A DNA stretch of 35,510 bases from positions 1 through 35,510 of the forward strand of contig JBLWGC010000200.1 of the NCBI GenBank assembly GCA_048772705.1, given 5' to 3'. A program made the position numbers and the translations under genes. The notes beneath the pieces are model-generated. The model worked only from the letters and a program-made list of their open reading frames with translations, had not been told where the DNA came from and made no database searches. Positions 4,903-35,510 of the stretch are shown here, one piece after another; position 1 is the stretch's first letter, and each line of letters starts with the position of its first letter. The DNA is from Leidyana gryllorum EB-2025a (taxonomy: Eukaryota; Protista; Apicomplexa).

Positions 4903-5208
4903 TGATGCGTCATTTTGAACCTGATCTGCGTTCTTTCAGTTAAGCCCCAGAGTCAATAACGGCCTATGGCCTTTAAGCTAAGCTAGATCTACATACCGGC
5001 CTGGTGAAGGGAGACGCGAACACAACACACACGTTTTTATTGTTTATTTTTCATTACGTTCCAATACAACCAATTCAATTACGAGCACTTACCAGACCAA
5101 AACCCAATTTCAGGATACCCAGATTAGCCGTCAGTATAGATCATGGACCCAATGCATCCAACTAGGGACGGAACCAGCGATTCGGCGGACGTTCCGCCTA
5201 TCAAACCA
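4903..5208 (+). repeat. E1 5' LTR
   Basis: Matches 9624-9929; one substitution seen (C5190 vs G9911). Confidence 0.96.
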
Positions 5209-6837
5209 TTTGGGGGCTGTTCTGGGAACGACCGTATGCTTCAGTTAGTGGCGGTCGGGACCATTCCAAGCCGGTTCCCTCCTGTACCTGATACGGCTAT
5301 CACATTGCGTGCAGAAGAAGATTGGGCCAAAGCCATGCGCCGATTGGACTTCCCAAGCTTTCAACCCAAGAACGAAAGCGAATTCGAAGACCGGGTCGAC
5401 CGAGTGGCCAGGGTGATCATGGCGGCCCCCATTTCACTGAATTTATTTCGCGAAAAATGGCTGACAGTAACGGAAGAGAGCATGTGGCAATCGAGTATTT
5501 TAGACACCATGACAGCTAGTGACTATGAAGACCTGGTCACGCAGGTGGCGAAATCTAGATACAATGGACGCAACTACCTGATGCAGTTAGAGAAAGAGCT
5601 ATATCAGAGTAGCGAGAAGCCCACTGTGGGAAGCGCCTTCCAGCACGTGCTCGTTCATGCAACACGGGCGGTGAGAGCAGCTAAACGCAGGGGTTATGAA
5701 GGAGTGGATCTGTGTCTAGGAGAACGAAGGATAGTCGATGCCTTCCGGTGTGCTCTACCCCGGCCAATTGCTGTCAAGCTGATGAGTAGTACGGAACTGA
5801 AACTAGCGAACCACTTAGTGCAGACTGCCTTGATGGCGGAGAGTCTTAGCGAGGAAATGCTGCCATACCCAGTGCACGCCTATATGGCTGACGTGAACAA
5901 TCGAGACCCTGCAAGCGGCAGGAAGGCAGCGGAGAACATTCCCCCTGCGAGGAAGCCGGGTCAGTGTCATGGGTGCCTTGGAATCCACTTCCGGAAGGAC
6001 TGCCCTTATTTAACGGCGACCTGTACGAGGTGTGGACGGAAGGGTCATGCGGGAGAGGCTTGTCGAAGCCGATTTACTACTGATTGCTTAGGTGGAAAGC
6101 AGATTGAAATTCAAGAGAAGTGGCGTGGCGGCGCTAAAATAAATGTCGAAGGAGATGGAACAAAAGTCCAAAGTTTAGAGAAAGCCCAGCGACTGATAGC
6201 CCGGAACCTCCCACCCGGCAAGAGGTCAGTGCCAGAGGTCGTGGGCGCCGAAGTCCCAGGTGGTAGCGACGACGTGGCCGAGGTGCATTGTCCCCAGCTA
6301 GCAGAGGAGATAGAGTCAGATGAGGACTATCTGGGTAGGTGCGAAGCTCGCAGGACCTATTATAGTACGGCGCTACAGAGTCGCTCGACATTCTATGTCA
6401 AAGGGGTTACGGAGAGAGGAACGATCCGTCTGCTCATGGATACAGGAGCAGTTAGATCCATGTGTGGTTTGCAAGTGGCTAGGATGTTGGACCTGAAAGA
6501 CACCGGAAGGCAGTGGAGCTTTGTAGGACTGGGAAAGCGAGTAGCTAGGCAGCAAGAGCCGGTTAGAGTGCAGATTGGAACGAAGGACATTGAAGTGGAA
6601 TTCTACGTAGTACAAGAGGAGGTATTCCCGGCTCTGTTGGGATATGTGGAGTTAAAGAAGCTGAAGGCGATGATTGACACCGTCAATTTTCAGGTGCGAG
6701 ATGCGGAGACGATGGAGGTGATTGTCGAGGAGGACAAGGAGTGCGAAGGGGTGCTAGCCGCCCGGGAGATTCCTGAACTGGTGAATGAAGAAGAGTTGAA
6801 GATGAGATTAGCACAGCTCAGTGGGCACCTAGAATAG
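5143..6837 (+). CDS. gag: E1 Gag (two zinc knuckles) - aspartic protease
   Basis: CHGCLGIHFRKDC and CTRCGRKGHAGEAC; LLMDTGA; ends at a TAG in frame with the RT ORF. Confidence 0.9.
   Translation: MDPMHPTRDGTSDSADVPPIKPFGGCSGNDRMLQLVAVGTIPSRFPPVPDTAITLRAEEDWAKAMRRLDFPSFQPKNESEFEDRVDRVARVIMAAPISLNLFREKWLTVTEESMWQSSILDTMTASDYEDLVTQVAKSRYNGRNYLMQLEKELYQSSEKPTVGSAFQHVLVHATRAVRAAKRRGYEGVDLCLGERRIVDAFRCALPRPIAVKLMSSTELKLANHLVQTALMAESLSEEMLPYPVHAYMADVNNRDPASGRKAAENIPPARKPGQCHGCLGIHFRKDCPYLTATCTRCGRKGHAGEACRSRFTTDCLGGKQIEIQEKWRGGAKINVEGDGTKVQSLEKAQRLIARNLPPGKRSVPEVVGAEVPGGSDDVAEVHCPQLAEEIESDEDYLGRCEARRTYYSTALQSRSTFYVKGVTERGTIRLLMDTGAVRSMCGLQVARMLDLKDTGRQWSFVGLGKRVARQQEPVRVQIGTKDIEVEFYVVQEEVFPALLGYVELKKLKAMIDTVNFQVRDAETMEVIVEEDKECEGVLAAREIPELVNEEELKMRLAQLSGHLE
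5211..5228 (+). promoter_or_regulatory. E1 primer-binding site, tRNA-Pro
   Basis: TGGGGGCTGTTCTGGGAA is the exact complement of the tRNA-Pro 3' end (4640-4711) plus CCA. Confidence 0.93.
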
Positions 6838-6867
6838 CCGAGAAGGGAGCAGCTAGAGAACCTACTG

Positions 6868-7653
6868 TTGAAGTTCATGGATTGTTGGGCAACTCCTCGC
6901 TTAGGAGGCATTAAGGGACAGGCCGCTACGTTGGAAGTTAGTGGCAGGCCGGTGAAGGTCCCCATTCGCCGACTGGCACCGGAGCTGAAGGAAATATTGG
7001 AACAGGAGGTGACGAGGCTACTGAAGGAAGGAGCAATACGGCCGAGCAAGTCCCCGTGGGGCAGCGCTCCTGTGTTTGTCAAGAAGAAAGATGGGAAGTG
7101 GCGAATGTGCATCGACTACCGCCCGTTGAATAAAGTTACGAAGGCGGACGCCTATCCGTTGCCTCTAATATGGGAACAGCTGCAGTCTGTCGCCGGAAAG
7201 AATCACTCCACCAGTATGGATTGTCACTCAGGATTTTGGCAGCTCCCGCTAGACGAGGCCAGCAAGGAATTCACTGCGTTTGTGACTCACATGGGAACCT
7301 TTGAATTCAACGTATTGCCATTTGGAATGAGGAATAGTGCATCGGAATATCAGAGAGTCATGGATCAGACCTTTGGGGATCTATACCTGAAGGGAGTCGT
7401 ATGTTATGTTGACGATATTGTCATAAGCGCTAATGAACTGCAGGAACATGACGAATTGCTGGAAGAGGTACTACGCAGAGCTGTGAGAGCAGGGATCTCG
7501 TTCAGATTAGAAAAGACCGAGTTAGACAAGGAGAGGATATTTGTACTAGGGCATAGTGTGGGTCGCGAAGGGATAGCGCCCTCCCCTGACAAAGTTCAAG
7601 GGATCATGCAGGCAGGCCCCCTCGGGATAAGGCAGTGCTCAGGTCATTCCTAG
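6868..7653 (+). CDS. pol: E1 reverse transcriptase (segment of interrupted pol)
   Basis: SPWGSAP, WRMCIDYR, LPFG, YVDD. Confidence 0.93.
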   Translation: MKFMDCWATPRLGGIKGQAATLEVSGRPVKVPIRRLAPELKEILEQEVTRLLKEGAIRPSKSPWGSAPVFVKKKDGKWRMCIDYRPLNKVTKADAYPLPLIWEQLQSVAGKNHSTSMDCHSGFWQLPLDEASKEFTAFVTHMGTFEFNVLPFGMRNSASEYQRVMDQTFGDLYLKGVVCYVDDIVISANELQEHDELLEEVLRRAVRAGISFRLEKTELDKERIFVLGHSVGREGIAPSPDKVQGIMQAGPLGIRQCSGHS

Positions 7654-9626
7654 GGGCGGTGAGTTATTTGCGACGGTTCATCCCAAATTTGGCGTCAATT
7701 GTGGAACCGCTAACTAGGTTGATGAAGAAGAATGCGGCGTGGGCATGGGAACAGGAGCAGGAGTTAGCGTTCAGGATGCTACAACAGGAGCTAGCAGAAA
7801 CAGTGATATTACAGGCACCAAAGGGCAAGGGAAGTTTTAGAATGATGACAGATGCATCGGACAAGGGCATTGGGGCAGTGCTATTTCAGGAACAGTCAGG
7901 CGAGTGGGTGCCCTTGGAGTTCGCGAGCCGAACCTTGAGCGAGAGGGAGAGAAGATGGGACACGAGAGAGAGAGAGGCGTTCGCGATTAAATGGGCTGTG
8001 GACCATTTCCGCGACTATATCAGGTGTGGGAGGACAGTGGTAGAGACAGACCGTGAGAGTTTGCGGTGGATGGCGAACGCACAGTCAGGGAAAGTTCAAC
8101 GGTGGTCTATGTTTCTGCAGCAATTCGATTTAGAGATTAGGCATGTGTCAGGGGAGTCCAATTCCATTGCAGACTGGCTGTCCCGGACAGCCGATGTGGA
8201 GACCGTAGACGAAGAGATTGAGACTATTGCAATCCCGGTGTTGATGGCTCAGGCGGGTATCTATCCCCCACGCATCCCTACCATTGCAGAACTGACGAAG
8301 TCTTACACTACCATGACGGATGAAGAGAGAGCAGAGTGTTACAAAACTAAAGAGGATTACTACATAGCCAAACGAACCAACACTCTCTACATTCCAGCAG
8401 TTTTGAGAGAGGGAGTGATGTTTTGGTTTCACTCATCAAAATTTGGTGGCCATTTAGGTGTGACACGCACACTGCGCAGAATGAGAAAGTGGGTTTATTG
8501 GAAAGGAATGGCCCAGGATGTAGCGAGGTATGTGGGACAGTGCCTCATATGCGCTAGGAAGGCCCCCTTAGCATCAAACCGCTCATGGAGGGGTACCTTA
8601 CAGCGCCCCCGACCGATGGAGTTAGTCAGCGTAGACTTCGTGGGGCCACGGAAATGGGGTGGACAGATAGTGCACTACTTAGTCGTGATTGACCACCACA
8701 CTAGGTTCATGATGACCCTCCCCACAAGGAAGAACCCGGATGCGAAGACCGCTGCGATGGGGCTGCAGAGATGGGTGGGAGTATTCGGTGCTCCTACCGT
8801 GGTGTTGACTGACAATGGGAGCCATTTTCAGGCAGAATTCAAGGAATATGTCCTTAGGACTCTCACATCTTACCACGCACGTTCTAGCCCTTACTACCCG
8901 CAGGGGAACGGCCTGAACGAAGCTAGTCACAAGGGAATCGAGGCCTATTTAGAGTGCACAGAAGGCGATGCCGCCTTCACCTTCGAGGAAGCGTTAGCTG
9001 CAGCGACTCAGGTACATAACGCTACACCACACTTCGGAGTTGGAGAAAGCCCATTCTATGCTTTAATGGGATTCGACATGGTTTTGCCAGGCTTGCAGAT
9101 GTGGAGATTAGACACTGCTGAATCTAGCCGAGCAGCGAAGTTAGCAGGTGCGACGCTTAGGATGGTGGAAGCGGGAATTCGAGATGCAGATAGGAGGGAG
9201 TTGGGAGAACATGAGTTCAAGGTGGGAGACCTAGTGATTACGCAGCTACCGGAGGTGAAACGTGGGGCTGGTTATGATCGGACAGGAATAGGAAGGGCAT
9301 ATACTAGCAATTGGAGCTTGCCAGCTAGAGTCCAGAAAGTGAAACAAGGCCAGTTAGAAGTCTATTATTATGGAACCAAGGATGTGGCCCTGGTGCCGGT
9401 GCGGCTGTGCAGAAAACTGGGGAAGGAAGTGCCAGCTAGTCTGTCTGAAGAGACTATTCGAATGTTAGAGAGGGAGTTACCTCATTACCCTAGGCGAAAG
9501 GGATATGAACTGCTGCCGACGTTAAGTTGGAAGGCCATTCTAGGCGACACGGAGGCGGTGAATGCCATGGGACCAATACCCGTGAAGAGGAGGAAGCAAG
9601 ACTCTGTGGCTGGAGGGGGTGGCTGA
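7635..9626 (+). CDS. pol: E1 RT connection - RNase H - integrase (after frameshift)
   Basis: LRSFLG, TDAS, IADWLSR, H..HLG..CLIC, VDFVGP, TDNG, PQGNGLNE; no chromodomain seen. Confidence 0.93.
   Translation: MLRSFLGAVSYLRRFIPNLASIVEPLTRLMKKNAAWAWEQEQELAFRMLQQELAETVILQAPKGKGSFRMMTDASDKGIGAVLFQEQSGEWVPLEFASRTLSERERRWDTREREAFAIKWAVDHFRDYIRCGRTVVETDRESLRWMANAQSGKVQRWSMFLQQFDLEIRHVSGESNSIADWLSRTADVETVDEEIETIAIPVLMAQAGIYPPRIPTIAELTKSYTTMTDEERAECYKTKEDYYIAKRTNTLYIPAVLREGVMFWFHSSKFGGHLGVTRTLRRMRKWVYWKGMAQDVARYVGQCLICARKAPLASNRSWRGTLQRPRPMELVSVDFVGPRKWGGQIVHYLVVIDHHTRFMMTLPTRKNPDAKTAAMGLQRWVGVFGAPTVVLTDNGSHFQAEFKEYVLRTLTSYHARSSPYYPQGNGLNEASHKGIEAYLECTEGDAAFTFEEALAAATQVHNATPHFGVGESPFYALMGFDMVLPGLQMWRLDTAESSRAAKLAGATLRMVEAGIRDADRRELGEHEFKVGDLVITQLPEVKRGAGYDRTGIGRAYTSNWSLPARVQKVKQGQLEVYYYGTKDVALVPVRLCRKLGKEVPASLSEETIRMLERELPHYPRRKGYELLPTLSWKAILGDTEAVNAMGPIPVKRRKQDSVAGGGG
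9612..9623 (+). promoter_or_regulatory. E1 polypurine tract
   Basis: GGAGGGGGTGGC directly before the 3' LTR. Confidence 0.8.
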
Positions 9627-9929
9627 TGCGTCATTTTGAACCTGATCTGCGTTCTTTCAGTTAAGCCCCAGAGTCAATAACGGCCTATGGCCTTTAAGCT
9701 AAGCTAGATCTACATACCGGCCTGGTGAAGGGAGACGCGAACACAACACACACGTTTTTATTGTTTATTTTTCATTACGTTCCAATACAACCAATTCAAT
9801 TACGAGCACTTACCAGACCAAAACCCAATTTCAGGATACCCAGATTAGCCGTCAGTATAGATCATGGACCCAATGCATCCAACTAGGGACGGAACCAGCG
9901 ATTCGGCGGAGGTTCCGCCTATCAAACCA
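9624..9929 (+). repeat. E1 3' LTR
   Basis: Direct repeat of 4903-5208. Confidence 0.96.
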
Positions 9930-9936
9930 ATCATTT

Positions 9937-10001
9937 TGCATCTGTCGGGAATCGGGTTATCTCGGTGCCAGCGAGAGAGTTTTCCATTGGACCACAGATG
10001 C
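9937..10001 (-). pseudogene. tRNA-Gly remnant
   Basis: GCATCTG acceptor ends kept, interior decayed. Confidence 0.55.
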
Positions 10002-10169
10002 CGAACACCATCCTGTTCAATCTTGTACGTGATGACAGCCATTTCTTATAAGCCTATCGATTCATCATGCCAGCGAGAGAGTTTTCCATTGGACCACAGA
10101 TGCCGAACACCATCCTGTTCAATCTTGTACGTGATGACAGCCATTTCTTATAAGCCTATCGATGCATCA
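9966..10169. repeat. 102-bp tandem duplication
   Basis: 9966-10067 repeated at 10068-10169 almost exactly. Confidence 0.92.
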
Positions 10170-10170
10170 A

Positions 10171-10243
10171 AGCCTTCTGCCGGAATCGAACCGGCGAATT
10201 CTCGCTTACGAAGCGAACGCTCTGCCCCCTAAGCTAAGAAGGC
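10171..10243 (-). tRNA. tRNA-Thr(CGT)
   Basis: Near-identical to 4424-4495. Confidence 0.82.
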
Positions 10244-10318
10244 GATGTAAGCCGGGTATAACGAAAAATCGCTATCGACGGAGATCAGTGGAGCACTTTG
10301 CTCGAGTAGTTAAATGAC

Positions 10319-10391
10319 TTCCACTGTCGGGACTTGAACCCGGAGCGTGCGGGTGAGAGCCGCATATCCTAGCTACTTAGACTACAGTGGA
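10319..10391 (-). tRNA. tRNA-Glu(CTC)
   Basis: TCCACTG/CAGTGGA stem, CT-CTC-AC loop. Confidence 0.8.
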
Positions 10392-10536
10392 CGACTCACT
10401 CAGCTGCAGCTTGAGCCGAGAGCCGTACCCTCTTAACAAGACCTGGTCTGTCGGGTCAACCTACAACAAAGGGATTGCAGAATCCTGCAGTAGAAAGTGG
10501 AGGGTCTCTCTACTGACCTCTGAAACATTGTGAGCG

Positions 10537-12926: not shown

Positions 12927-12975
12927 GATGTGCGCAAAAGGGAGACAGCTTCAGAATAGATCGGCTTGTGTGCAA

Positions 12976-15006: not shown

Positions 15007-15078
15007 TAGCAGTGCGTCGTTTCGATCGACGGACCTTTGGGTTATGAGCCCAACACTCTTCCACTGAGCTACACTGCT
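15007..15078 (-). tRNA. initiator tRNA-Met(CAT)
   Basis: A1:U72 pair, GGG/CCC anticodon stem, GATCGAAAC T-loop. Confidence 0.92.
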
Positions 15079-20038: not shown

Positions 20039-21633
20039 TGTTTGGTGCTGAGTAGGACTGTATCCCCAACCTCGAAGTTTCCAACCGACCTCCTTTGGTC
20101 GGCCGCCTGTTTCTGCTGAGTCTGTGCCGCCGTGATGCGGTCTTTGATCTCCTGGAGTCGCTCAAATTGAAGGAGTGGCCTTCCGTTCGTTGTGTTGGGA
20201 GGTGGTGGTACTGCTAGTGTGAGGGGGGTCCGTAGTACTTCTCCCGTTTCGGCTTCGTGGGGTGATATGCCAGTGGAGTGGTTGACGGTAGAGTTGAGTG
20301 CCATTTCTATGACTGGTAAGATGTCGATCCACTGTTCCTCCAGGCCCTGGCATGCTGCTCGGAGTAGCTGTATCATCGACCGATGTGCCCGTTCCACCAT
20401 TCCGTTGGTCTGTGGGTGGAAAGCGGTACTAGGGCGGAGCTTGGTTCCTAAACCGTCGAGCATTCCTTCCCACACCTCGAACAGCCACCGTGAGTCCCGA
20501 TCTGAGATTATGATCAGTGGGCATCCGTGAGGTCGGACCAAATGCTGAATGAGAAGCTTCGCAGTGTCTGCGGCTGATATGTCTTTCGTGCACGGGATCA
20601 ATATGACCCTTCGGGTGAGTCGATCTATGATGGTGAATATACAGTCCATTCCCGACGTCTCGTCCTTTGGGAGCGACAGCAAGTCTATGCTCACCTCTTG
20701 CCATGGGCGGTCGGGTGGGTCAATGGGGTGCAACAGGCCGAGTGGTCGTTGATTGCTGGTTTTGGTCTTTTGACAGATATCGCATTTCGAACAATACTCC
20801 CTGACGTCTGAGCTCAGTCCTGTCCATGTGAAATTGCTGACAACTCGTTTTAGGGTTCGTTCGCTTCCCATGTGCCCGCCTAGGAGTGATGCGTGGGCCT
20901 CCTCCAATATTTTCAACCCTAACTCGCGGGCCGGGGGTACCATCACTCGTCCCTCGTCGTCGTAAATCAGTCCCGCGTGCTTCACCTGTCCTTCCTGGGG
21001 TTCCATATTTGCACTGAGTCGCTTCATCAATAGTAAGAAACTGCTTGCTGAGTCCGGTATTGCTGCATGGCACCGTCGTTCGGGAGGGCGACTGAGAAGG
21101 TCCGCCAGGTGGTTGTCCTGGCCCCTGATGTAATCGATACGCGCTGGATACTGTGAGATTTTGATGAGCGTGCGAATGACCCTGTCTGATACGTTGCGAG
21201 TTCTGGCAAGTGTGGCCAAAGGCTTGCGATCGGTTAACACTTGAAACTCTCTCGTGAGCAAGAAATGCTTCCATCGGTTGACCGCCCGCTCGATCGCCAG
21301 AAGTTCTCTCTCGTGCACAGGCCATGCCTTCTGCGTGGGTGTCAGAGCTTGGCTCATAAATTCCAGAGGGAGCCTCTGGCCGTCTTGAACTTGTTCTAAG
21401 GTTGCGCCAATGACGTGATTCGAAGCATCTGTGGTCACTATGAGGGGTAGTTCCGGGTTCATCAATCCCAGTTTTGTCTCATCGTTGGAGGCTTTTGTCA
21501 GGTCGGCCCACTTCGTCCTCAGCTCCTCGTTCCAGTCCACCCTGTCTGTTGGTTTGGCGGCTTTTGCCGCTGTGTGATGGAACGGTTTGACTTTCTCGGC
21601 GAAGCCGGGTATGAATCGCGCGTAGAAGTTCAT
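19999..21633 (-). pseudogene. pol: E2 RNase H - integrase fragment
   Basis: TDASNH, LADLLSR, H..GHMG..CDIC, HPQTNG; last codons run into tRNA-Ala sequence. Confidence 0.9.
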
Positions 21634-22877
21634 GGCGCATACTTCTGCTTTGAGTCTCTTGACGATGTCTGGAGTGGTAGGTTCCTAAAGTAGGCTACCT
21701 TTGTCTCCATGGGGTAAATGCTGGTGGCTGAAATCCTGTGGCCGGTGAACGTGACTTCCGAGAGGAAAAACGCTGATTTATCCGGATTCGGGAACAGTTT
21801 GTGCTGGTCCAATCGTTCTAGTACTTTCTCCAAATGTATCCGATGGTTCTCTCGAGTGTCGCTGAATATCAGTAGGTCGTCTACGTAGGCGACCACGAAT
21901 TTGCCAATGTACCCGTCCAAAACATCCGTCATAAGTGCTATGAACGCGCATGGGGCGTTCCGAAGGCCGAAAAGCATCACTTTGTACTGATATTTTCCAA
22001 AGGGGGTAACGAATGACGTCAGTGGTCGGCTTCGAGGTTCTATCTGAATTTGGTGGAACCCTTGGCGGAGATCGATTTTGGAGAATACAGTGGCTCCGCG
22101 GAGCACGGAGAGGTTCTGTTCGGTGGTCGCAGTTGGGTAGGCATAGTTCTCAGTCGCCTCGTTCAGATCGTGGAAGTTGATTACCATTCGAAGTTCTTGC
22201 GTGCCCTGCTTGGGCACCAGAAAACAGGGGGCGGACCATGGAGATTTCGATTTTTCTATTTTTCCCGTGGATAGGAGCTCGGATACCTGTCGTCTCAATT
22301 CTGCTTCGTTCCCCCTGTTAGTGTACTGTCGTCTGGCACAGGGGGTGGCTCCCTCCTTGAGATGTATCTGGAAACTGTGGAATCCCCGGTCGGGGGGTAG
22401 GGGTAGGCTATCCCTGAAGAGATGGCCAAACCGTTCCTCGATCCACCCTTCGTCTCTACTTGTGCATTTCACTTTCCGCACGTTGGCGGGATTGGTTTGG
22501 GTGGAGAGTATCAAATTCCGATCCCTGAGCGTCATCCCCTCTGCTATCACTATGTTTCCGGCTCCGTTGGTACCTAATACCAAAGACATTCCATGGATGG
22601 CGGGGAGGCGCAGTATGACCTCATAATGTCTGTTCTGGACAATGGCAAAGTCCATCGGTCCGTACTCATTCGATGGTGTGCGTACCATCGCGGTTGCATC
22701 TCCGGTACATGTTGCCGTACCCATTCCGTGTATCATCTCGTCTTTCGGCTCACGGGTTCTCAGACGCAGTGTCGTCGCTACTTCCGGTGTCATGAGGTTC
22801 AGTTCCGCTCCCGAGTCTACTAGGACGGATACCGTTGTGAATTCTCTCGTGTCCGTGTTGCCGATCTGCCAATGCAC
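21630..22877 (-). pseudogene. pol: E2 protease - reverse transcriptase fragment
   Basis: VDSGA, SPWSAP, IDLRQGFHQI, YVDD. Confidence 0.9.
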
Positions 22878-23004
22878 GGCCGCTGTCCATCCTATCTGGC
22901 GTGCATCATGCGCTCGTAAGGCTCTGAAACATCCGTACCCCCCTCCAGCTGTCGCTGTTGTCTTTGTTCTTGAGCGGGGAGGGGGTGGGTCAAAAATCCC
23001 CGTC

Positions 23005-23668
23005 TTATCCGTCGGATTCCATCGTTGCGGTTTGTTGTGTTTCTGCGGGAAACGCCTTACGCCCCACTTGGTGTGTTCTGCCTCGAGGTTTGTTCATGGT
23101 CCGGCGTTCTGGGCATTGCGTGGACATGTGGCCGTCGGCCCCGCAAATGTAACATAATCGGTTCTTTTCGCAGTGTTCGCGAGAGTGAGGATTCTTCGGT
23201 CCCACTCCTCGTCTTCCAGCTGTGAGACAGCGGGCTCCTGGTGTCTGATCCGTGTTGTCCACGCACATGGTGAGTGCGAGGCTCACTGCCTCGGTCACCG
23301 ATCTGGGCGCGCGTCCCCTGATGGCCAATTGCTCCGCTCGGGGCAGTCTTGACAAGAACAATTCCACCAGCTCGCTCTCGGCTATGCCGCTTATTCCTCT
23401 CCTATGTTGCCTGAACATCATGGCAAATTGGCGGATTCTGCCTGGTTGCGCGTTAAGCATCGCTAGCTTCGTGAGTTGTCCTCGTTTATCCGTTTCGAAC
23501 TCCTGTTGTACGATCTGTCTGAACTGGTCCCATGCCCTGTTTTTGAGGTTTTCGTGGCACGTGTTGGCCCATGCCGAGGCTTCGCCTCGAGCGCTCTACC
23601 ATCTGAGCAAGCCGCCCATCCGCTCTACATGGAAAACCTTCTGCATCCAGTGGCTGACCGAGTGCCGA
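23005..23668 (-). pseudogene. gag: E2 Gag fragment
   Basis: CCHC knuckle in ORF 23005-23460; frame extends upstream through one stop to the junction. Confidence 0.8.
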
Positions 23669-23677
23669 TACAACGGC

Positions 23678-25045: not shown

Positions 25046-25477
25046 GCTCTACGAGGACTTAAGTGCACAAAACTGGGGGCTCGGAGAATCGGACCCTTCA
25101 GAGTGAAAGCAAAAATCGCGGGCGACGTGTATGAGCTTGAATTACCACCGAACCTCAAGATACACAACCGATTTCACATCAGCAAACTCACCAGGTACCA
25201 CGGAACCCCCAGCGCACAGCACGCACCGATCTACATTATGGAATCAGTCATCGGAGAGAGAACAACAGAGAGCGGACTCGAGTGGCTAGTCAAATGGGAC
25301 GGATACAGCAGAGAGCAAGCTACGTGGGAACCATGGACAGTGCCGAACGAAGGAGATGCAACGGATCTTATCCTAGCTTTCAGAGCGGACTACAATGCGC
25401 GACCGGGAACACGAACTCCGTACACCGAAGCCGAACTCCGCGGAGCCGACCTCAATTTTAGGGGGGGAGGAGTGTAA
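25046..25477 (+). pseudogene. pol: E2 integrase C-terminus (GPF motif) and chromodomain
   Basis: KLGARRIGPFRV, FHISKL, WLVKWDGYSREQATWEP. Confidence 0.9.
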
Positions 25478-25665
25478 GGTGAACATCTATCACCGGCAAC
25501 CCGGAGACCGGCCGGCACAACACCCGGAGACGGAGACACCGATAGACACACACGCGTGTTACCTTTTTACTTGCATGACCGATAAACCTATGGAGGACAC
25601 AGGCTTAGAGCTACGTAGCGGAAAGACCCTCACCTCGCCCGGACCAGCCGATCCACCTGGTTACA
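25473..25665 (+). repeat. E2 3' LTR
   Basis: TGTAA..TTACA termini; preceded by PPT AGGGGGGGAGGAG; interrupts E3 integrase. Confidence 0.85.
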
Positions 25666-27816
25666 TCCTGTGTCTAGTTCGAATGGGCTCATCCTCGTGG
25701 AGCTTTGCAGTGCGCTATTATAGGCGAGTTCGACGGTCGCCAGGTGGGAGGTCCATTGGTGTCCGATGCCTTCAAGGGTACATCGCAGTAGTTGCAAGAT
25801 GGACCGATTAGCTCGTTCCACTAGACCATTAGTCTGCGGGTGGTATGCTGTAGTCATGGCCAGTTGGGATCCTAGATTCTTGAACAGACTCCTCCAGACC
25901 TCCGATGTAAATCTGGGATCCCGGTCGCTTACTATCCGTTTCGGTATGCCATGTATTCGGACAATGTTAGCGAGGAATAACTCGGCCGTTTGTTCTGCGG
26001 TGATGGTCTTCAGACAGGGTGTCAGGCGGATCCTTCGGGTCAGACGATCCACCACTACCATGAGATAGTCTTGTAGCGTATCCGGGTCGCGTGGTAGTTC
26101 CAAGAAATCTATCCCGACTTCTTCCCACGGGAAGAGGGGGCTTCGCAGTGGGTTGAGGAGACCTACCGGCCTGTGGTTCCTTCGTTTTGCCCTTTGGCAC
26201 ACGTTGCAAAGGTGACAGAATTGAATAACATCAGCCATTAGCCCCTTCCATCTGAAGACGGCACGTATGCGGCCCGCCGTTTTGTCGGGGCCCAGGTGTC
26301 CCGCCATTCTTGAGTTGTGGTTGTCGGCTTTGATAGAGTGTATCAGTGCCGCATCCGGTGGTACGACAATAGTGCCATCGGGTGCCACCGGGAGGTCTTC
26401 TATCCATTCAATGTTCGGATAGTCGTTGATGTGTTCGCGGTGATTCTTCCACGACTCTCGTAAACCGGTCTTCCAGATGTTGGTCGTGTTCGTTATCGGT
26501 CGTTGTGACAGTAAGGACTTGCGCGGGGCGGGTGTTCGGTTCAGTAGGTCGGCTCAAAAGATCCGCGATCAGGTTGTTAACGCCCGGCATGTATTGAATT
26601 TGTAGATCGAGTTCTGACAGCGAAACCAGCCATCGGAGCTGTCTATCGGAGAGGTGTGCTTGATGTAGCAGAAATGTCAACGGCTTGTGGTCGGTTTGAA
26701 TGACGACTCGTCGGCCCAACAGGAGGTGCCGCCAGTGGCGACATGCGGCGACAATACTCAAGAGTGTCCGCTCGTGTGTCGCATAGTTTCTTTCAGGTGC
26801 GCTCAACGTTCTGGAATAGAACTCGATAGGCCTCTTTCCATGCTCCTCTTGCTGCTCGAGTACCGCTCCCGATAGCGATCGCGCTAGCATCAGTGGTCAC
26901 CCACAGTTCGGTGCATTGTGGGCCAGGAAACGCTAAGGTGGTGGCGTTAATAAGTGCGTTCTTGAGCTGAGTGACCGCGGTGTCGATGTTCGGATCCGGG
27001 GGTAATATAGCGCGTGGTCCTTTGAGTCCATGAGTAGCCTCATGGATTGGTTTGGCGATCTGGGCAAAGTCCGGGATGAATCTTCGGTAGTAATTGAATG
27101 ATCCTAAGACACTCTGTGCTTCCTGTAAGGTTTTTGGTGGGTGTATGCCCTGGAGAGCGGATACTCTGTGTGGTAGAGGAGTGATACCCTCCGGGTTGAT
27201 TCTGTGGCCGATGTAATCCACTTGAGTGTGAAAAAATGAGATTTCGGCGGTGTGCAATAAGTTGGTGTCTGCGCAATCGCTCTAAGACTTCCTTCAGGTG
27301 GGTTCTATGCTCGGCTCTTGATGCAGAGAATACTAACAGTCACCCAGATATACGAAAACTGAGATCCCGATAAGGTCACGGAAGACCATGTGCATGAGTT
27401 GCATGAATGTTGCTGGGGCATTCATGAGTCCGTTGGGCATGACCACCCATTCGAATAAGCCCCATGGCGTTGCAAATGCGGTCAGTGATCTGCTCTCCGG
27501 GGCCATTAAGACTTGGTGGTACCCGCTCTTTAGGTCTAACGTTGTAAAATACTGGGCTCCGGACAGAACTTGTAGGGCCTCTTCTATGGATGGCATCGGC
27601 GAAGCCACTCGGATTGTAGCGGCATTCAATTGCCTATAGTCACAAACTAGGCGCGGGACGGAGGTGTCCTTCTTAGGGACAAAAAGGCATGGAGCGGACC
27701 ACGAGGATGTGCTGGCTCGGATCTTTCCCGAACGTTCCAATTCGAGGATCTGTTTGCGCATTTCCTGAAGGTATCTTTGGGGTATACGATAGGGTCCCCT
27801 GACGAATGGCAGCCCA

Positions 27817-28098
27817 TGTTAGAGATGTAGGGGACGAGGGAGCACGCAGAATACCATTACTAGAACAAAATCCCCTGTTACCCTGCGATGCTTCCCATAC
27901 CATCGGCGGTAGGCTCCTACGCAACTCGCAGAAGGACAGACGTTGATGTTTGTCAGGCCTTAGGCCCACCTTTTCCCAGTGTTGCATGAAGACAGTAGAC
28001 AGAACACAGAGGGCACGAACAGACAACAATGCCATCGAAACGTACCGCCATTAAGCCTCCAGCCGCCGGCCACGGGCCTGCAGCCGACCCGGCTGACA
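27817..28098 (+). mobile_element. Solo LTR inserted in E3 pol
   Basis: TGTTAG..CTGACA; GCCCA TSD both sides; removing it restores DPNG-LPFVRGPYRIP. Confidence 0.88.
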
Positions 28099-29734
28099 GC
28101 CCATTAGGATCCTTCAGGTGAATCTTGTGGTCCACTCCTGCGCTGATAGGAGGCATTGGTAAGTGCTCTTGGAAGACGTCCGGGTATTCTAGTTCGATCC
28201 ATTGTTCCTCCGTTGGCGCATCTAACTGGTCCACTTGTATTGCATTCAAAATTGCCTTCTCCCCTCCCCTTTCTTTGGTCCATACGGTTGTTTCGTCGTG
28301 AGTAAGGAGATTCGAGCCTTCCGTCAGGCTGAGTTGTCCATGTTTATTGGGGCCGAGCAGAAGTCTGAGTTCGAGGATGGTCGTCGTGGACACGATGAGG
28401 TCGTATTGGCAGTCCGGCGTTATCAGGCACCCGAGCGTGAGTTGTTGTCCCCTCTTAGTGCGGAGAGTCAATTCCGTTTGGTGGAATACCCTGTGTCCTG
28501 GTGAGCGTAGCGATGCGGATGTGACACGGTGTTGTCACTAGATGAAGTCGACGTACAACATGTTCGGAGACGCAGTTCGTGTTGCTGCCAGTGTCTAATA
28601 GTACCTGTGCAGTCATTTCGAGGTCGGTTCGTGGGTTGCGGAGAATCCACGTCACACTCAGTGGGGGAATCGGGCCTACTGCTCGTCGGCCTGGTCTGCC
28701 GGCTCCGTTGCAGCCAGGTAGGTCAGAAAATCCTTGTCATCTTCCGCCACGGTATTGAAGGTTTGGGGTCGGGCCGTTCGACGAATTCCTTCCTTCGGAT
28801 GCGGACACGAAGCATTCTTATGGTCCGTGCTCCCACAGTTGTAACAACGTCCTTCCCGTGTACACTGGTCGTGAGTGTACTGGCATCGGCGTCCTACCGT
28901 GCGTTGTCGGTTGTCCGGTGCAAATTTCCCAGTGGTAAGGTGTACTCGAGCCGTCACTGATGGTTTAGCCTCGTCCTGGTCCACGGTCATCGCGTAGAGC
29001 ATCGCCGCTCTACATAAACCGTCGAATCCCTGATCCAGACTAGAAGCCAAAGCAACCCTCTCCGTTCTCTGGAGTCCGCGCAAAAAGAAATTTCCAGCGG
29101 ATCTATCGTTCATCCGGTCCCCACATCGACGACGTAAGACTCGGCATCGGGTGATGTACTCGGCCATCGATCCCGTCTTTCGTAGATCTGCCCATCTGGT
29201 GAGATCATCCTCCGCACCACTCTGCGTGTCGAACTCTTGCAGGAAGAGGTCTCGAAAATCTTTCCAGCTGACTAGGTCCTTATTTCGAGAGACTCGTGAG
29301 TACCACTGCCGTCCACCACAGTTCCCATGGCTCGTATCCGATCGGTGCCGTCCTGAACTCCATACGCTTGGAACTTGGCTTCGCAACCTTCTAGCCAATC
29401 TCTTGCCGCTGATTCGCCCTCGCCCTTGAAGTCGTGTTGCTTCTTCAGCGCCGCCTGTGCTGTCTTGCTAGGACCTGTATGTCCGTCGTTTCTCGTTCTA
29501 ACCCCTTTCTCCTCGTTGGTCGTTCTGCTGATGGCGAGGTGGGTCAATTGGAGGGAAGCCTCTTGTATTTGAGCGATGAGGGCTTGAGCGGCCAATATGG
29601 CAGCATTGAGTTCTTGCACTCCCGTCGTTGGTGGATCGCTCGTGGGTCTTTTGGTTTCTTCCTCCGGGTTCACGTCATGCGCCGTTGAGCTCGGGAGTGC
29701 GTCGTTGGGTATGTGCCCGTCCGTAGCACCACCC

Positions 29735-29752
29735 AACGACGCACTGCTACCA
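29735..29752 (-). promoter_or_regulatory. E3 primer-binding site, initiator tRNA-Met
   Basis: TGGTAGCAGTGCGTCGTT is the exact complement of the iMet 3' end (15007-15078) plus CCA. Confidence 0.92.
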
Positions 29753-29753
29753 A

Positions 29754-30099
29754 TATAGCCCCGACCGGGGCCACCTGCGGCCAGTAACACCTCCCGTCCG
29801 TTACGTAAGATCATTGCTGCGGTGGAGGTAAGTTCGGGAGTCGGATCGGTCATTCGAAGGTCGGTTGTTCAAAAAGGTAAGTTCAAGCACACGCGCGTGT
29901 CCGTGTCTCCGAGTGCCGGCCGGCCGGCCGGCCTCCGGAGACACAGACACCCCGAAGGTGGACTAACCGAGGTTAGGCACCGTCATTTGTCCGCCTGAGG
30001 CGTAGTAGCTCTCCCCCCCGTCGGGTGACCCATTGTCGGATCGAGAAGTGTAGGTCGGTCCAGCAGTGGGGGAAGCTCGGGTAACACTCCAGTGTTACA
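29754..30099 (-). repeat. E3 5' LTR
   Basis: Starts TGTAAC at the satellite border, ends GGCTATA (TA instead of CA) 1 nt before the PBS. Confidence 0.72.
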
Positions 30100-30530
30100 T
30101 GCCACATGTTTCACACCTGTTTGACACTCGTTTGTGATATGTTTGCGATATGTTTGCGACATCTTTGACACATGTTTGCCACTTGTTTGCTACATGTTTG
30201 CCACATGTTTCACACTTGTTAGTTACTTGTTTCCGACATCTTTGACACTTGTTTGCTACTTGTTCTCCACGTGTTACACACATGTTTCTCACTTGTTTAA
30301 CACATGTTTGCCACATGCTTGACACTTGTTTGATACATGTTTGACACTTGTTTGTGAGTTGTTTCACACTTGTTTGCGAGTTGTTTGCAACATGTTTGAG
30401 ACTTGTTGCGAACTTGTTTGACCCTTGCTTCGCGACATGTTTGACACTTGTTTGCAACATGTTCCAGCCTTGTTTGACACTGGTTTCCGAGTTGTTTGAC
30501 ACTTGTTTCACACTTCTTTGCTACTTGATA
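30100..30530. repeat. 11-bp degenerate minisatellite (consensus ~ACACTTGTTTG)
   Basis: Periodic ACACTTGTTTG / ACATGTTTG variants. Confidence 0.92.
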
Positions 30531-31364
30531 GGTACTTGAATGACACTTCTCTACAAGTCGTTTGAACTCGTACATATCGTTCCAGAGCAATTGCACGCAA
30601 GATTGATGCAATTAGTTCGTTCTGCTTATCACATTCACGATAGGTTGCTAACTATTCCATCAATAAATAAATCTCACAGAAACAATGGGTACGGGGAAGC
30701 GCCCGAGCGAAGCGACAAGGGCGCTTGAGCTGGACTTAGGCGGCCAGCCGTTATGCAGCCTAGATCGGAGAATTTTACAAAATAAAAGAATTAAGCTAGA
30801 GCAATGGTTCCAACCCCTTCACTTCCGGACTTAAGCCACCTCTATAACTCACCGCTGCCCCCCGAACGCCATGAGCTGGATGACGGCTCAGCGCTCCCCA
30901 CACCCCATCAATACTTCTTCACGCACACTATTACTCAATGTACATATGAGCCTTAACATCCCGCTCGTACACTAACAATTCGAATACTCATAACTCTTAG
31001 CATATATACACTCTCTCAATGTTTTATAGCAAACAACTGACCACCACCCTCTTACCACCTCGAACTACATCACAATTGTCAATATACTCCTATTAACCTA
31101 CCTATCATTAGCCAAATTCATATCGTCCGAATCAACACTCAAATCCTATCCATAACTTGACTCCATCCGCATATTCTTACAAATACCCATTCACTCCAAT
31201 ACATAATGTCCACGATACGCACTGGACTCATGACATTCTTCTCAACACTAACAATTCAACTTCAATCTCATTGATCCCCTTATATCTAGCATTGCAAGCT
31301 TTTATACGTCTGCAAATACTCCCTCAATCAACGAGCAAATCGCTAACTCACTCTCGACGCCTCA

Positions 31365-32868
31365 TGTAAGTATCGGGCTCTAATACTGGGTCTGTGTGAC
31401 TGTCCTGTTTAGTTCTCCTAGTGAGCTTCTTCGGTAATATCGATCTAGCTCCAGATCTAGTGTTCACAGCCATTCTGGTCGGTTTGAGTGTTCGCGTCTT
31501 TGTAGTGCCCGTGTCTCCGTGGAGACACCGGTGTTCATGCAATCAAAAAGGGGCATACGTCTAGCTGTTGCTTGTGTAAGACCTTACACCACTCCCCCTC
31601 TTTATAAGAGGTCTTCGCCGCGAAGCTCCGCCTCTGTGAACTGTGTTGCTGCTTGGTTGTAGTGGTACACCGAGTCAAGTCTAGCCCTACCTTACGTGTG
31701 ATCTGTTTTTAGTTGCATGAATAGTCCTAGTTTACACGTGATTCGTTTTTGGTTGCATGAACACACGGGTGTCTCCGCACGGAGACACCGGCAATACAGA
31801 CACGTGAACTTACCGATCTAGAAATGAACACCAGACGCACTAGGCGATCGAGTATTCTCCCTCGAGCCATGACCCACCGCTCCAAAACCAAGACAGCAGA
31901 GAGGGTAGATGACCCAGAGATGGAAACTTACATTGGTGGGTCCTGTTCCATTCGGTTCGGTAGTTGATAATGAGGTCGGAGGCATCGGCCTCTATTAGGG
32001 TAGTGCGCGGTTCCCATGTCGCCTCCTCTCGCGGGTATCCAGCCCACTTCACCAAAAAGCTGAGCCCGTTGGCATCGTGTTTTTGGGCCAAGACTGCTTC
32101 CATCTGGAAGATTTCGTCTGTTGCTTCTGTGGGGGGTTGTCCATGGTATTCCTTGAGGCGCGAGCAGTGGAACTTTCGCAGGCCTCTCCATTGGCGCGGC
32201 ATATTGAGTTCGACAACGTCTCCTTCTGAGATTCGCGTGATCTGGAAAGGCCCTATGTAAGCCTTCCGTAGTTTGCCCTTGGGCGCTCCTGTGACTCCAC
32301 CAGCCTTAAGTAGTACCCATTGTCCCTCACGCAACGTTGATCGGCTGTGGCCTTTGTCATACTGTTCCTTTTGTTTGCCTTGTGCTGAGCGGATGCGGTC
32401 TTGGATGAGGGTCAGTGTTTCGGTGTGTAGTCCTTGGCTGACTGGGTTGGCGGCAATGTCTACAGTGAGACGGATGCGCGGGATGAAGCCTCTCTCGGTT
32501 TCGAATGGAGAGATCCCAGTGGACGCGTTGGGGAGGGAGTTGTAGGCGAATTCCACTGATGCCAGCTTGCTAACCCATTTTGCTCCCACCTCCTGTTCGC
32601 ATAGGCTTCGCAATACTTGAATAATTGTTCGGTGCGCTCTCTCAATGAGGCCATTTGTTTGAGGATGTCCCCGCGTGCTGGGTTTCAGCTTAGTCCCCGC
32701 CGATTGGAGTAGCTTCTCCCACAGCTCGCTCAGCCATCGGGCATCTCGGTCGCTGATTATGGCTCTGGGGAAACCGTGTTCCCGCACCACTCGTGTCATT
32801 AGCATAGCTGCACACTCTTCTGCGTTGGCAGTATGTTTGCAAGGTTCGAGCAAGATGCGCCTTGTCAA
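31365..32868 (-). mobile_element. Chromovirus 3' fragment E4 (integrase core, chromodomain, PPT, 3' LTR 31365-31588)
   Basis: ISDRD, HPQTNG, YIGPF, FLVKWAGYPREEATWEP; PPT GAGGGGGAGTGG; TGTAA..TTACA LTR. Confidence 0.9.
31658..31932 (+). mobile_element. Solo LTR inserted just after the E4 chromodomain
   Basis: TGTAG..TTACA; TTGGT TSD; removal restores NRTHQ-AATQFTEAELRG. Confidence 0.9.
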
Positions 32869-33680
32869 TTGTGCAGGTCGGCGAAACCCGCAAGGGTGAG
32901 CCCGACCATTACCGTAGGTTTTTTGGGGGTTCTTAGGGGGTACCAGAAACGACTTTTAGTGAAATAGGAATTTGATTAGAAGCTCTAGACCAGCTCGCTC
33001 GCTTACCTTAGGAATAGTAGTGGCCTCATTAGTTGGCAGCCAGGTTTTAGGCGAAATCTCACCGCTAGAATAAGAGATAGGCGACTGTCTCGAGCTCTCT
33101 GAGACACGAGAAGGCCTGATTTTTGCAAAAATGACACTCGCCAAACTTCAATTGGCTCGTTCGCTACAGCAAACTAGCCTCCCATCGAGATGTAAGGGTC
33201 GTCAGACTCCTTAATTTAGCTCTCGTGCGGCACGCAAGCAACCGATAGCAGCCCAAACGAGCCACTTTTCCCAAGATTTGGTGTGCGAGACGTGGGACTT
33301 GGACTGTTATTTTTGTTCTCAGATCTAAAAAGCTCTCTTCTCGCTCGCGCTCGCTTTCTTCCCCCCCAGATGTTCCCAAGACGTGACCTAGTGCCACTCA
33401 GACTAGTGTGGCACGTTCCCGCACCAAGTAAGTTCCCACAACTCATCCCCACACATCCCACATAGCCGAGGAAGAGCTTCGCCACTTTGCGACCAGAGCC
33501 TCACCTCCCCGTTGTGCAGTTTTTATCCCAGCCAACTGACCCTCATTCGCTACCTGCCCCAACCAGCATCCACTGACGCCCCAGCTAACATCTCATTGAG
33601 TCATTCTCAGTCTCCCCTACCGTCTTTCTCGTCTACTGAGGTTATTGGGTGTCTCTAAGCGAAATTTATCACATTTTTTT

Positions 33681-33820
33681 GATGTCGTCACCCTCATCTC
33701 GTTACAAGTTTATCGGTGTTTTTTGATGTCGTCATCCTTATCTCGTTACAAATTCATCGGAATTTTTCATGTCGTCATAACCCGTTACTAATTCATCGGA
33801 ATGTTTCATGTCGTCATCCT
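33681..33820. repeat. ~39-44-bp tandem repeat, 3.3 copies
   Basis: ATGTCGTCA..CGTTAC..ATCGG recurs near 33681, 33725, 33768, 33807. Confidence 0.85.
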
Positions 33821-33884
33821 TAACCCCTTACCAAATTTTTCAAAAAAGCAGAGTTCGTCACCAGTGTGCAACTTGTACCAGATG

Positions 33885-35260
33885 ATACTCGTGTTACACA
33901 TCTCTTTGCAGCACCTTCAATACCCCTTTGCAACATGTTCGTGACTTGTTTGCGACATGTTTGACACTGTTTGCTACCTGTTTCACACTTGTTTCCTACT
34001 TGTTTGATACTTCTGTGAGACTTGTTCGCCACATGCTTTACACATGTTTAACACTTTTTTGCCACATGTTTAACACTTGTTTGAAACTCCGTTGAGACTT
34101 GTTCGCCACATGTTTAACACTTTTTTGCCACATGTTCCACACTTGTTTGTGAGTCGTTCAGCGAAGCTACCGCGCTAGCGAGCGAGTGATGTGAGAGGGG
34201 AGCATCGGGGGTCGGTGCGTCTGCCATTGTCTGAGAGTTTCTATCCCAATCTATTCTTTTCTAAATTACTAGCGGACACAACGTAGCCTATTTCCTAGAT
34301 CCCGACGTCCCAGGGCACGGCCCAGTTTGACACTCGTTTGACACTTGTTTGCGACATGTTTGCGACATGTTTCACACTTGTTTGACACTCGTTTGACACT
34401 TGTTTGCGATATGTTTGCCACATCTTTGACCCTTGTTTGCTACTTGTTTACCACTTGTTTCACATATGTTTGCCACTTGTTTGCCACATGTTTCACACTT
34501 GTTTGACACTCAGTTGAGACTTGCTCGCCACATGTTCAATACTTGTTTTACGCTCGTTTGACACTTGTTTGACACCCCTTTCACACTTGTTTGCGACATG
34601 TTTGCGACATGTTTGCGACATCTTTGGCACCCGTTTTGCTACTTGTTCGCCACGTGTTACACACACATTTGCCACTTGTTTCCTATATGTTTGCCACATC
34701 TTTCACACTTGTTTGACACTCGTTTGACACTTGTTTGCGATATGTTTGCCACATCTTTGACACTTGTTTGCTACTTGTTTACCACTTGTTTCACATATGT
34801 TTGCCACTTGTTTGCCACATGTTTCACACTTGTTTGACACTCAGTTGAGACTTGCTCGCCACATGTTAAACACTTGTTTTACGCTCGTTTGACACTTGTT
34901 TGACACTCGTTTGCCACTTGTTACACACATCTTTGACACTTTGTTTGCTACTTTTTTGCCACTTGTTTGCTACTTGTTTGCCACATGTTTCACACTCGTT
35001 TGTTACTTGTTTGACACTTGTTTGCTACCTGTTTCACACTTGTTTCCTACTTGCTTTGCACTTGTTACACACTTGTTTGTTACTTGTTTGCGACATGTTT
35101 GCGACATCTTTGACACTTGTTTGCCACATGCTTGACACTTGTTTGATCCATGTTTGACAGTTGTTTGCGAGTTGTTACACACTTGTTTGTTACATGTTTG
35201 CTACTCTTTTGACACTTGTTTGCGAGTTGTTTGACACATGTTTCACACTTCTTTGCTACT
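33885..35260. repeat. 11-bp degenerate minisatellite
   Basis: Same monomer as 30100-30530; interrupted at 34150-34324. Confidence 0.93.
34150..34324 (-). mobile_element. Probable solo LTR within minisatellite
   Basis: TG..CA with imperfect terminal inverted repeat (TGAGTCGT / ACGGCCCA); GTTTG on both sides (weak, as GTTTG is common in the satellite). Confidence 0.68.
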
Positions 35261-35312
35261 TGATAGGTACTTAAATGACACTTTTCTACAAGTCGTTTGA
35301 ACTCGTACATAT

Positions 35313-35510
35313 TGTAGGCTGGAGGCCACATGGGTAAGTCTGTGTCTCGGTGTCTCCAGTGCCGGCCGGCCGGCACCGGGTGAGGAGACACGGAGACACA
35401 CACACGAGCGGAGTCAGTGAACATTTTTTAGTTACGTGGAACTACGAACAATGCACTTACGAAACCGCTGCCTAGCAACAGACCCCGACGTAGATCTAAA
35501 GGAAACTTAC
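35313..35510 (+). mobile_element. LTR running to the window end
   Basis: Starts TGTAGG where homology to 30521-30577 stops; shares GGAGACAC and GCCGGCCGGC with E2/E3 LTRs; ends GAAACTTAC like 31923-31931. Confidence 0.75.

What the first reader, a model, noticed from the sequence alone, without database searches (positions are those of the whole stretch)
4903..35510. All eight distinct LTRs carry a start codon whose frame reads out through the LTR 3' end
Seen: E1 ATG5143 (22 codons, ends CCA, continues through the PBS into Gag); E3 ATG29853 (33 codons, ..LRNGR..GY, continues through the PBS into Gag); E2 ATG25575 (MTDKP..LRSGK..PGY); solo ATG28029 (MPSKRT..DPAD); E4 ATG31473 (MAVNTRSGARSILP..DTY); solo ATG31824 (MNTRRTRRSSILP..ETY, also 36 codons and similar to E4); ATG35451 (MHLRNR..ETY); solo ATG34227 on minus (MADAP..NDS). 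In six, the terminus falls in the same phase (TAC-A, TAT-A or GAC-A; the last A of 35313 lies beyond the window). Pol also ends inside the 3' LTR in E1 (TGA 9624) and E2 (TAA 25475). Known: yeast Ty1 starts Gag in U5, whereas Ty3/gypsy elements typically have an untranslated leader after the PBS. Inference: host-wide pressure for UTR-less elements across two Ty3/gypsy types, making each solo LTR a portable promoter plus start codon plus N-terminal peptide.
Basis: partly seen in the sequence, partly recalled or inferred. Interest (0 to 1): 0.78.

Follow-up and report, generated by a model that had tools for sequence, protein, structure and literature searches.

The report
Gag starts inside gregarine retrotransposon LTRs
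In a gregarine-type parasite, two unrelated kinds of jumping gene likely begin their shell protein inside the end repeat and read straight through the tRNA priming site, a layout known from yeast Ty1 that leaves a recognisable tRNA-shaped peptide in dozens of related proteins.

Summary
All eight LTRs have an ATG frame of 20-36 codons reading out of the 3' end (joint shuffle P about 9e-5, but the LTRs are not independent). E1 and E3 read through perfect 18-nt primer sites (tRNA-Pro, initiator tRNA-Met) into Gag. E3 has no in-frame Met from the primer site to residue 176, so its start must lie upstream. The E4 and solo-31.8k peptides are conserved in the reading frame only (P about 0.001). E1 belongs to an apicomplexan Ty3/gypsy clade (Gregarina, Porospora, Plasmodium gallinaceum). 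In that clade 34 of 92 Gag relatives carry a peptide matching a translated primer site, against 0 of 92 in downstream controls, with several primer tRNAs and two phases. E3 is a chromovirus, so two lineages share the layout. Weaker points: E1 has a Met after its primer site; solo 34k's orientation is circular; six LTRs probably descend from one chromovirus radiation. Pol ending in the LTR is trivial and fails in E4. No solo LTR fuses to a host gene, and host-wide pressure is untested. No RNA data. The scan noted this layout before in other genomes. A new variant of the Ty1 layout.

The parts
4903..5208 (+). E1 5' LTR (306 nt); ATG 5143 opens 22 Gag codons inside it
   Evidence: TSD ATCAT on both flanks of the element
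5211..5228 (+). E1 primer site, 18/18 to host tRNA-Pro plus CCA, 2-nt spacer, translated as (F)GGCSG(N)
   Evidence: the 15 nt match tRNA-Pro ends at 2534, 4697, 18122, 18829
5143..9626 (+). E1 gag-pol (PR-RT-RH-IN, no chromodomain found). Broken by TAG at 6835-6837 and a frameshift near 7620-7650. The stop TGA is the first three bases of the 3' LTR. No untranslated internal DNA
   Evidence: apicomplexan clade
9624..9929 (+). E1 3' LTR; its ATG 9864 frame runs 100 codons into flanking DNA
25473..25665 (+). E2 3' LTR of a truncated element with a chromodomain-like integrase end; ATG 25575, 30 codons; Pol stop TAA 25475-25477
27817..28098 (+). solo LTR inside E3's RT, TSD GCCCA; ATG 28029, 23 codons; orientation supported by a TGCATG motif and T-tract shared with other LTRs
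29754..30099 (-). E3 5' LTR; ATG 29853, 33 codons (second Met at codon 14)
29735..29752 (-). E3 primer site, 18/18 to host initiator tRNA-Met (15007-15078) plus CCA, 1-nt spacer, translated as (I)GSSAS(L)
25790..29853 (-). E3 gag-pol, a decayed chromovirus-lineage copy with its 3' end lost; Gag frame open for 193 codons from the LTR ATG with no Met between residues 14 and 176
31365..31588 (-). E4 3' LTR (chromodomain-bearing element); ATG 31473, 36 codons
31658..31932 (+). solo LTR inside E4's integrase tail, TSD TTGGT; ATG 31824, 36 codons; homologue of the E4 LTR with frame-specific conservation
34150..34324 (-). putative solo LTR in the 11-bp satellite; ATG 34227, 26 codons; orientation and limits weak
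35313..35510 (+). LTR cut by the window end, inserted after CATAT (empty-site paralogue at 30564-30577); ATG 35451, 20 codons

Best explanation
These Ty3/gypsy elements likely start translating Gag at an ATG in the 3' part of the LTR (R/U5), and the frame runs across the LTR end and the tRNA primer site into the capsid, as in yeast Ty1. Shown in the sequence: the open frames, the perfect primer sites, the absence of a usable downstream Met in E3, codon-level conservation between two LTRs, and primer-site peptides in many relatives of E1. Inferred: transcription starts upstream of the ATG with a short leader (at most 43-177 nt in the six LTRs with an upstream ATG, if the first AUG is used), and the LTR-coded 20-36 residues form a fast-evolving, probably unstructured Gag head whose last codons are dictated by the integrase end signal and the primer tRNA. 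Every 3' LTR and solo LTR carries the same ATG frame simply because both LTRs are copies of one sequence. The layout is probably old and inherited in the apicomplexan clade of E1, and is present separately in this host's chromoviruses.
For:: frames and 18/18 primer sites. E3 Mets at 1, 14 and 176 only; the out-of-frame ATGs after the LTR open short frames. PF03732 (E 1.8e-9) starts at profile position 14 just past the break near Met176; by eye the capsid-opening F-x-G...W-L-E pattern lies before Met176 (not significant; Atlas leads 0.91). E4 vs solo 31.8k score 54 in frame against -8 and -0.5 in the other sense frames, P about 0.001 in frame-blind simulations; identity by codon position 15/21/10 of 32; 25 of 76 relatives match a window-tRNA primer peptide at 4/5 or better upstream of the invariant RF, against 0 of 76 downstream and 4.3+-2.1 in shuffles; second set 9 of 16 against 0 and 1.2+-1.0; motif classes in 61 of 92, 18-35 residues before RF; 55 of these 61 are internal; 26 of the 55 have no Met from the motif to RF; 0 of 17 control Ty3/gypsy proteins (16 outside the clade plus P. 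gallinaceum) show the classes (1 of 17 a 4/5 dictionary hit); metagenome chromovirus L001 has a stop between its primer site and the Gag ATG; two lineages.
Against: No RNA, transcription start or ribosome data. E1 has an in-frame Met at residue 32, after the primer site and before RF; 20 of the 55 relatives with an internal motif also do. E2 vs E3 shows no significant frame excess (P 0.11-0.26), and the codon-position pattern alone is marginal for E4 vs solo 31.8k (P 0.03-0.09). For six LTRs continuity with Gag is inferred, not seen. Database N-termini are gene-caller choices, may be non-ATG starts, and their DNA could not be read. 31 of 92 relatives show no motif, 6 start exactly at the primer site, and the P. 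gallinaceum protein shows none. The second set holds close kin of the first. E1 and E3 are broken copies.
Confidence: 0.8

Rival explanations
1. A host-wide pressure for very short leaders in this gregarine pushed two unrelated lineages, separately, to move their start codon into the LTR.
For: Two lineages share the layout. GAGAC and T-tract motifs lie shortly before the ATG in several LTRs, and the E1 LTR resembles the 35313 LTR in that region (z 13). Earlier scan notes report the layout in compact microsporidian genomes (unchecked).
Against: The E1 clade has the layout widely, with primers unlike this host's, so it predates this host. No chromovirus relative could be found to date the second case. 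No host 5' UTR data. Earlier notes also report it in an animal genome.
Confidence: 0.25
2. Gag starts at or just after the primer site (a downstream Met, the ATG formed by the LTR's last A plus the site's TG, or a near-cognate codon there), and the LTR frames are open by chance or as unused extensions.
For: E1 Met32. 6 relatives start at the motif, 14 of 55 have Met as its first residue and 20 of 55 a Met further on. A single LTR shows such a read-out in 15-33% of shuffles.
Against: E3 has no such Met for about 140 codons. 26 relatives have none up to the invariant RF, 14 of them in the phase that gives no NTG codon at the site (my count). Frame-specific conservation of E4 vs solo 31.8k; joint chance about 9e-5.
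Confidence: 0.15
3. Solo LTRs are kept as portable promoter-plus-start modules that supply N-termini to host genes.
For: Each solo carries an ATG frame that leaves the LTR.
Against: Read-outs stop after 7, 11 and 11 codons for the three solos, 5 for E4, and 48 and 100 for the E2 and E1 3' LTRs, all in element, satellite or spacer DNA. No protein-coding host gene was seen in the window.
Confidence: 0.05

Closest known systems
Ty1 of Saccharomyces cerevisiae (Ty1/copia)
   Same: The primer site lies inside the GAG ORF (PMC4974528, passages read); the start in U5 is recalled, not read.
   Different: Here the elements are Ty3/gypsy (PR-RT-RH-IN order), with 20-36 LTR codons, a simple 18-nt primer site, and many primer tRNAs across the E1 clade rather than initiator tRNA only.
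Ty3 of S. cerevisiae and typical chromoviruses
   Same: Domain order; chromodomain in E4 (PF00385); initiator-tRNA priming in E3.
   Different: Ty3's 5' primer segment is not in GAG (PMC4974528); control chromovirus L001 has an in-frame stop between primer site and Gag ATG.
Apicomplexan Ty3/gypsy elements (Plasmodium gallinaceum PGAL8A_00410600, Ascogregarina, Gregarina niphandrodes, Porospora)
   Same: E1's RT falls in one 80-row clade with the Plasmodium, Gregarina and Porospora proteins (SH-aLRT 90, quick tree); single Gag-Pol ORF, no chromodomain (10.1101/086504, passages).
   Different: The passages read do not describe Gag starting in the LTR; the annotated P. gallinaceum N-terminus shows no primer-site peptide.
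CRM group A plant chromoviruses
   Same: [quoted passage not shown]
   Different: There the LTR encodes the CR motif; here only the stop codon falls inside the LTR, and not in E4.

Membership tests
Ty3/gypsy LTR retrotransposon | LTRs with TG...CA ends and a target-site duplication | tested here: met
   E1 306-nt LTRs with 5-nt TSD; solos with 5-nt TSDs; E3's LTR ends TA
Ty3/gypsy LTR retrotransposon | PR-RT-RNaseH-IN order | tested here: met
   Pfam, (protease by Pfam in relatives, by D-T-G motif in E1)
Ty3/gypsy LTR retrotransposon | tRNA primer site after the 5' LTR and purine tract before the 3' LTR | tested here: met
Chromovirus (E2, E3, E4) | chromodomain at the integrase C-terminus | tested here: met
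   E4 PF00385 E 1.3e-10; E2 similar by eye only; E3 has lost this end
Chromovirus (E3) | RT groups with chromoviruses | tested here: met
   5-row starred clade (100) with chromodomain-bearing proteins, quick tree, long branch for the 20-23.7 kb fragment
Apicomplexan non-chromovirus Ty3/gypsy clade (E1) | RT monophyly with Gregarina, Porospora and Plasmodium elements | tested here: inconclusive
   80-row clade at SH-aLRT 90, not starred; careful search unfinished
Ty1-type layout | primer site lies inside the gag reading frame | tested here: met
   E1 and E3 directly; relatives by peptide
Ty1-type layout | transcript starts upstream of the LTR ATG and ribosomes initiate there | not testable with these tools
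   no sequencing run was listed
Ty1/copia family | integrase upstream of RT | tested here: not met
   works like Ty1 in layout but is not a member

The most novel reading that the evidence does not exclude
Two unrelated Ty3/gypsy lineages converged on LTR-started Gag in gregarines, and in the chromoviruses the LTR-coded head carries a nucleosome-binding arginine anchor. A [LT]R[SNR][GRT] motif is in 5 of 6 heads (post hoc; shuffles average 0.2) and resembles the hydrophobic-L-R anchors of LANA and foamy-virus Gag (PMC9040877).
Probability: 0.07. Interest if true: 0.8.

Novelty: new variant of a known kind. Interest (0 to 1): 0.47.

Why it matters
It shows that the Ty1 layout is not a copia oddity: a broad, barely described apicomplexan Ty3/gypsy clade translates its primer site, and so do the chromoviruses of this host. 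The primer tRNA can then be read from the Gag protein alone (Pro, Ala, Asn, Ser and others, in two phases), which makes primer switching traceable where no DNA is at hand. It also raises a testable question: how ribosome passage and primer annealing share the same bases. For annotation, Gag N-termini in such elements must be sought inside the LTR.

Tried and rejected
No whole genome is held, so full-length copies and base 35511 could not be checked. No sequencing run was listed; this is no evidence either way. The E3 Gag head found no relatives among longer proteins, and none of 7 window proteins is in the collection by exact sequence. Chromovirus Pol relatives were only 22-41% identical. The metagenome scan gave one distant chromovirus, used as a control. 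Viral contigs gave nothing for E1's RT or E3's primer site; the genome-contig hit L002 is a chance match in a bacterial gene with no tRNA. Pfam gave no family for E1's Gag or E3's first 193 residues at E 1; the pairwise test of E3's head against a plant Gag was not significant. Of 28 LTR-peptide pairs only E4/solo31.8k, E2/E3 and solo28k/solo31.8k reached p 0.01 or below. Rejected: shared phase as independent evidence; Pol-in-LTR as a special feature; exaptation of solos. Rows dropped before the counts: of 150 listed Gag hits, 108 had the Gag core, 82 the RF anchor and 76 had RF at position 20 or later; of 103 new Pol hits, 22, 18 and 16. Literature: ten searches found no description of LTR-started Gag in apicomplexan elements. 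The library lacks most subscription journals, no supplements were read, and the original Ascogregarina and Eimeria papers were not seen.
Full report
Setting. The window is eukaryotic: 70 tRNA genes between 90 and 24747, an 11-bp satellite and nested LTR elements. An earlier scan note calls the host gregarine-type. My own support for that is the RT tree, where E1 sits with Gregarina niphandrodes, Porospora and Plasmodium gallinaceum elements.

Observation. I fixed the LTR limits and translated all frames to each end. All eight ATG frames are as described, 20-36 codons long. E1's two LTRs differ at 1 of 306 bases and have a 5-nt TSD. Solos 28k and 31.8k have clean TSDs that restore the interrupted host-element frames by eye. 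Solo 34k lies in satellite DNA and resembles no other LTR. Dinucleotide shuffles give such a read-out in 15-33% of single LTRs, and arbitrary window DNA in 28%. The joint value is about 9e-5 when either strand is allowed for the solos and 35313. This overstates significance, because E2, E3, E4, solo 31.8k and 35313 are linked by DNA similarity (z 8-21 for the best pairs). Solo 28k and 35313 have longer antisense read-outs; shared motifs fix their orientation.

Primer sites. E1 is followed after 2 nt by 18 bases complementary to host tRNA-Pro plus CCA, and E3 after 1 nt by 18 bases complementary to the host initiator tRNA. Both are translated in the Gag frame. The common phase has a simple cause: with the fixed LTR end and a 1-nt spacer, one of three phases meets TAG inside the initiator-tRNA site. 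The final Tyr or Asp is thus the integrase end signal read in frame, not a protein motif.

Is the LTR ATG needed? In E3 the only in-frame Mets are residues 1, 14 and 176. PF03732 begins at profile position 14 just beyond a frameshift near there, and by eye the capsid-opening pattern precedes Met176 (Atlas leads at 0.91). An open 140-codon stretch without Met leaves the LTR ATGs as the only AUG starts. In E1 the case is weaker: Met32 lies after the primer site and before the invariant RF at 44-45.

Coding constraint. E4 and solo 31.8k are homologous LTRs (z 20.7). Their peptides share 16 of 32 aligned residues, 8 through different codons; the score is 54 in frame against -8 and -0.5 in the other sense frames. 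Frame-blind simulations reach that excess in about 0.1% of runs; the codon-position pattern alone gives P 0.03-0.09; E2 vs E3 is not significant.

Relatives. A full HMMER search with E1's Gag-protease gave 227 hits, 150 listed. I translated the primer sites predicted from the window's own tRNAs (42 distinct) and looked for them before the RF anchor. 25 of 76 relatives match at 4/5 or better, against 0 of 76 in a downstream control and 4.3+-2.1 in shuffles. A second set from a Pol search gave 9 of 16, against 0 and 1.2+-1.0, with three perfect matches; it includes close kin of the first set. Motif classes learned on the first set cover 61 of 92 proteins, mostly 21-25 residues before RF; E1's own distance is 21. 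In 55 the ORF begins upstream (12-104 codons), 26 of those have no Met from the motif to RF, and 6 proteins start at the site itself, likely at an ATG made of the LTR's last A and the site's TG. Hits split 17 and 17 between two phases, with none in the Trp-first phase. The matches point to tRNA-Pro, -Ala, -Asn, -Ser and others. The ten VS[EK]PG cases I assign to a plant-type initiator tRNA from recall, untested. Of 17 control proteins (16 outside the clade plus P. gallinaceum) none shows a class motif; chromovirus L001 has a stop before its Gag ATG. These are predicted proteins whose DNA I could not read.

Two lineages. The quick RT tree (117 rows; the careful search did not finish) puts E1 in an 80-row apicomplexan clade (support 90) and E3 in a starred chromovirus clade. 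E4 carries a chromodomain.

Mechanism. Shown: frames, primer sites, Met positions, frame-specific conservation, primer peptides in relatives. Inferred: a promoter in U3 (GAGAC at -42 to -66 in five LTRs, T-tracts at -10 to -27 in three), a short leader bounded by upstream ATGs 43-177 nt away, and initiation at the LTR ATG. Whether the ATG is in R or U5 cannot be told without RNA ends. Solo and 3' LTRs inherit the frame passively; their read-outs end after 5-100 codons with no host gene joined. Pol's stop uses LTR bases 1-3 in E1 and 3-5 in E2, but falls 13 nt before the LTR in E4.

Comparison. Ty1's primer site is inside GAG and Ty3's is not (PMC4974528, passages; PMC11381356, passages, added nothing on starts). 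Coding overlap with the 3' LTR is known for CRM group A (PMC3059260, passages). Apicomplexan Ty3/gypsy elements are known (10.1101/086504, passages; PMC9141347, part 2 of 5 and passages, with no mention of primer sites). Passages of PMC12471100, PMC5006619 and PMC4402516 gave no precedent. Ten searches found no report of this layout in apicomplexan elements. The scan's own unchecked notes report LTR-started Gag in microsporidian, probable flatworm and other genomes, so the layout recurs; none matched E1 by sequence.

Verdict. A real feature, and a new variant of the Ty1 layout in Ty3/gypsy elements (confidence 0.8). It is inherited clade-wide on the E1 side; host-driven convergence is possible but unshown (0.25; compatible with the main reading). 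The arginine-anchor idea (PMC9040877, passages) is a post hoc lead only. Interest 0.47.

Noticed in passing
window 90-24747: Dense cluster of 70 tRNA genes on both strands, many duplicated with their spacers and several degenerate. E1 sits 41 nt after the 3' end of tRNA-Met 4788-4861, between converging tRNA 3' ends, unlike the upstream targeting of Ty3.
   Followed up: partly
window 4995-5084 and 35369-35462: The E1 LTR (apicomplexan clade) and the 35313 LTR (chromovirus type) share about 90 nt of DNA similarity (z 13). At the place of the 35451 ATG, E1 has ATT, and its own ATG lies about 70 nt further on. Shared host promoter motifs or LTR exchange between lineages.
   Followed up: partly
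window 20040-23675 (-): An LTR-less chromovirus-lineage gag-pol fragment abuts a tRNA-Leu 3' end at its 5' side and a tRNA-like half at its 3' side.
   Followed up: partly
window 30103-30520, 33927-34149, 34325-35255: An 11-bp satellite with chromovirus-type LTRs nested in and around it; possibly heterochromatic or centromere-like.
   Followed up: no
P0072-P0272 N-termini: Primer-site peptides occur in two phases only (17 and 17 hits); the Trp-first phase is absent although most primer sites have no stop in it.
   Followed up: partly
P0075, P0085, P0241, P0243: Gag-Pol ORFs fill about 95-97% of their 4.8-4.9 kb contigs, in line with elements almost free of untranslated DNA, if the contigs are whole units.
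   Followed up: no
window 9966-10169: A near-perfect tandem duplication of 102 nt just downstream of E1's 3' LTR.
   Followed up: no
window 25473-25665: The frame holding ATG 25575 is open through the entire E2 LTR (64 codons) and further upstream to ATG 25395.
   Followed up: no
window 30600-31360 and 32880-33900: Unannotated stretches with skewed composition and a 44-nt tandem repeat (33675-33820); possibly remains of other elements.
   Followed up: no
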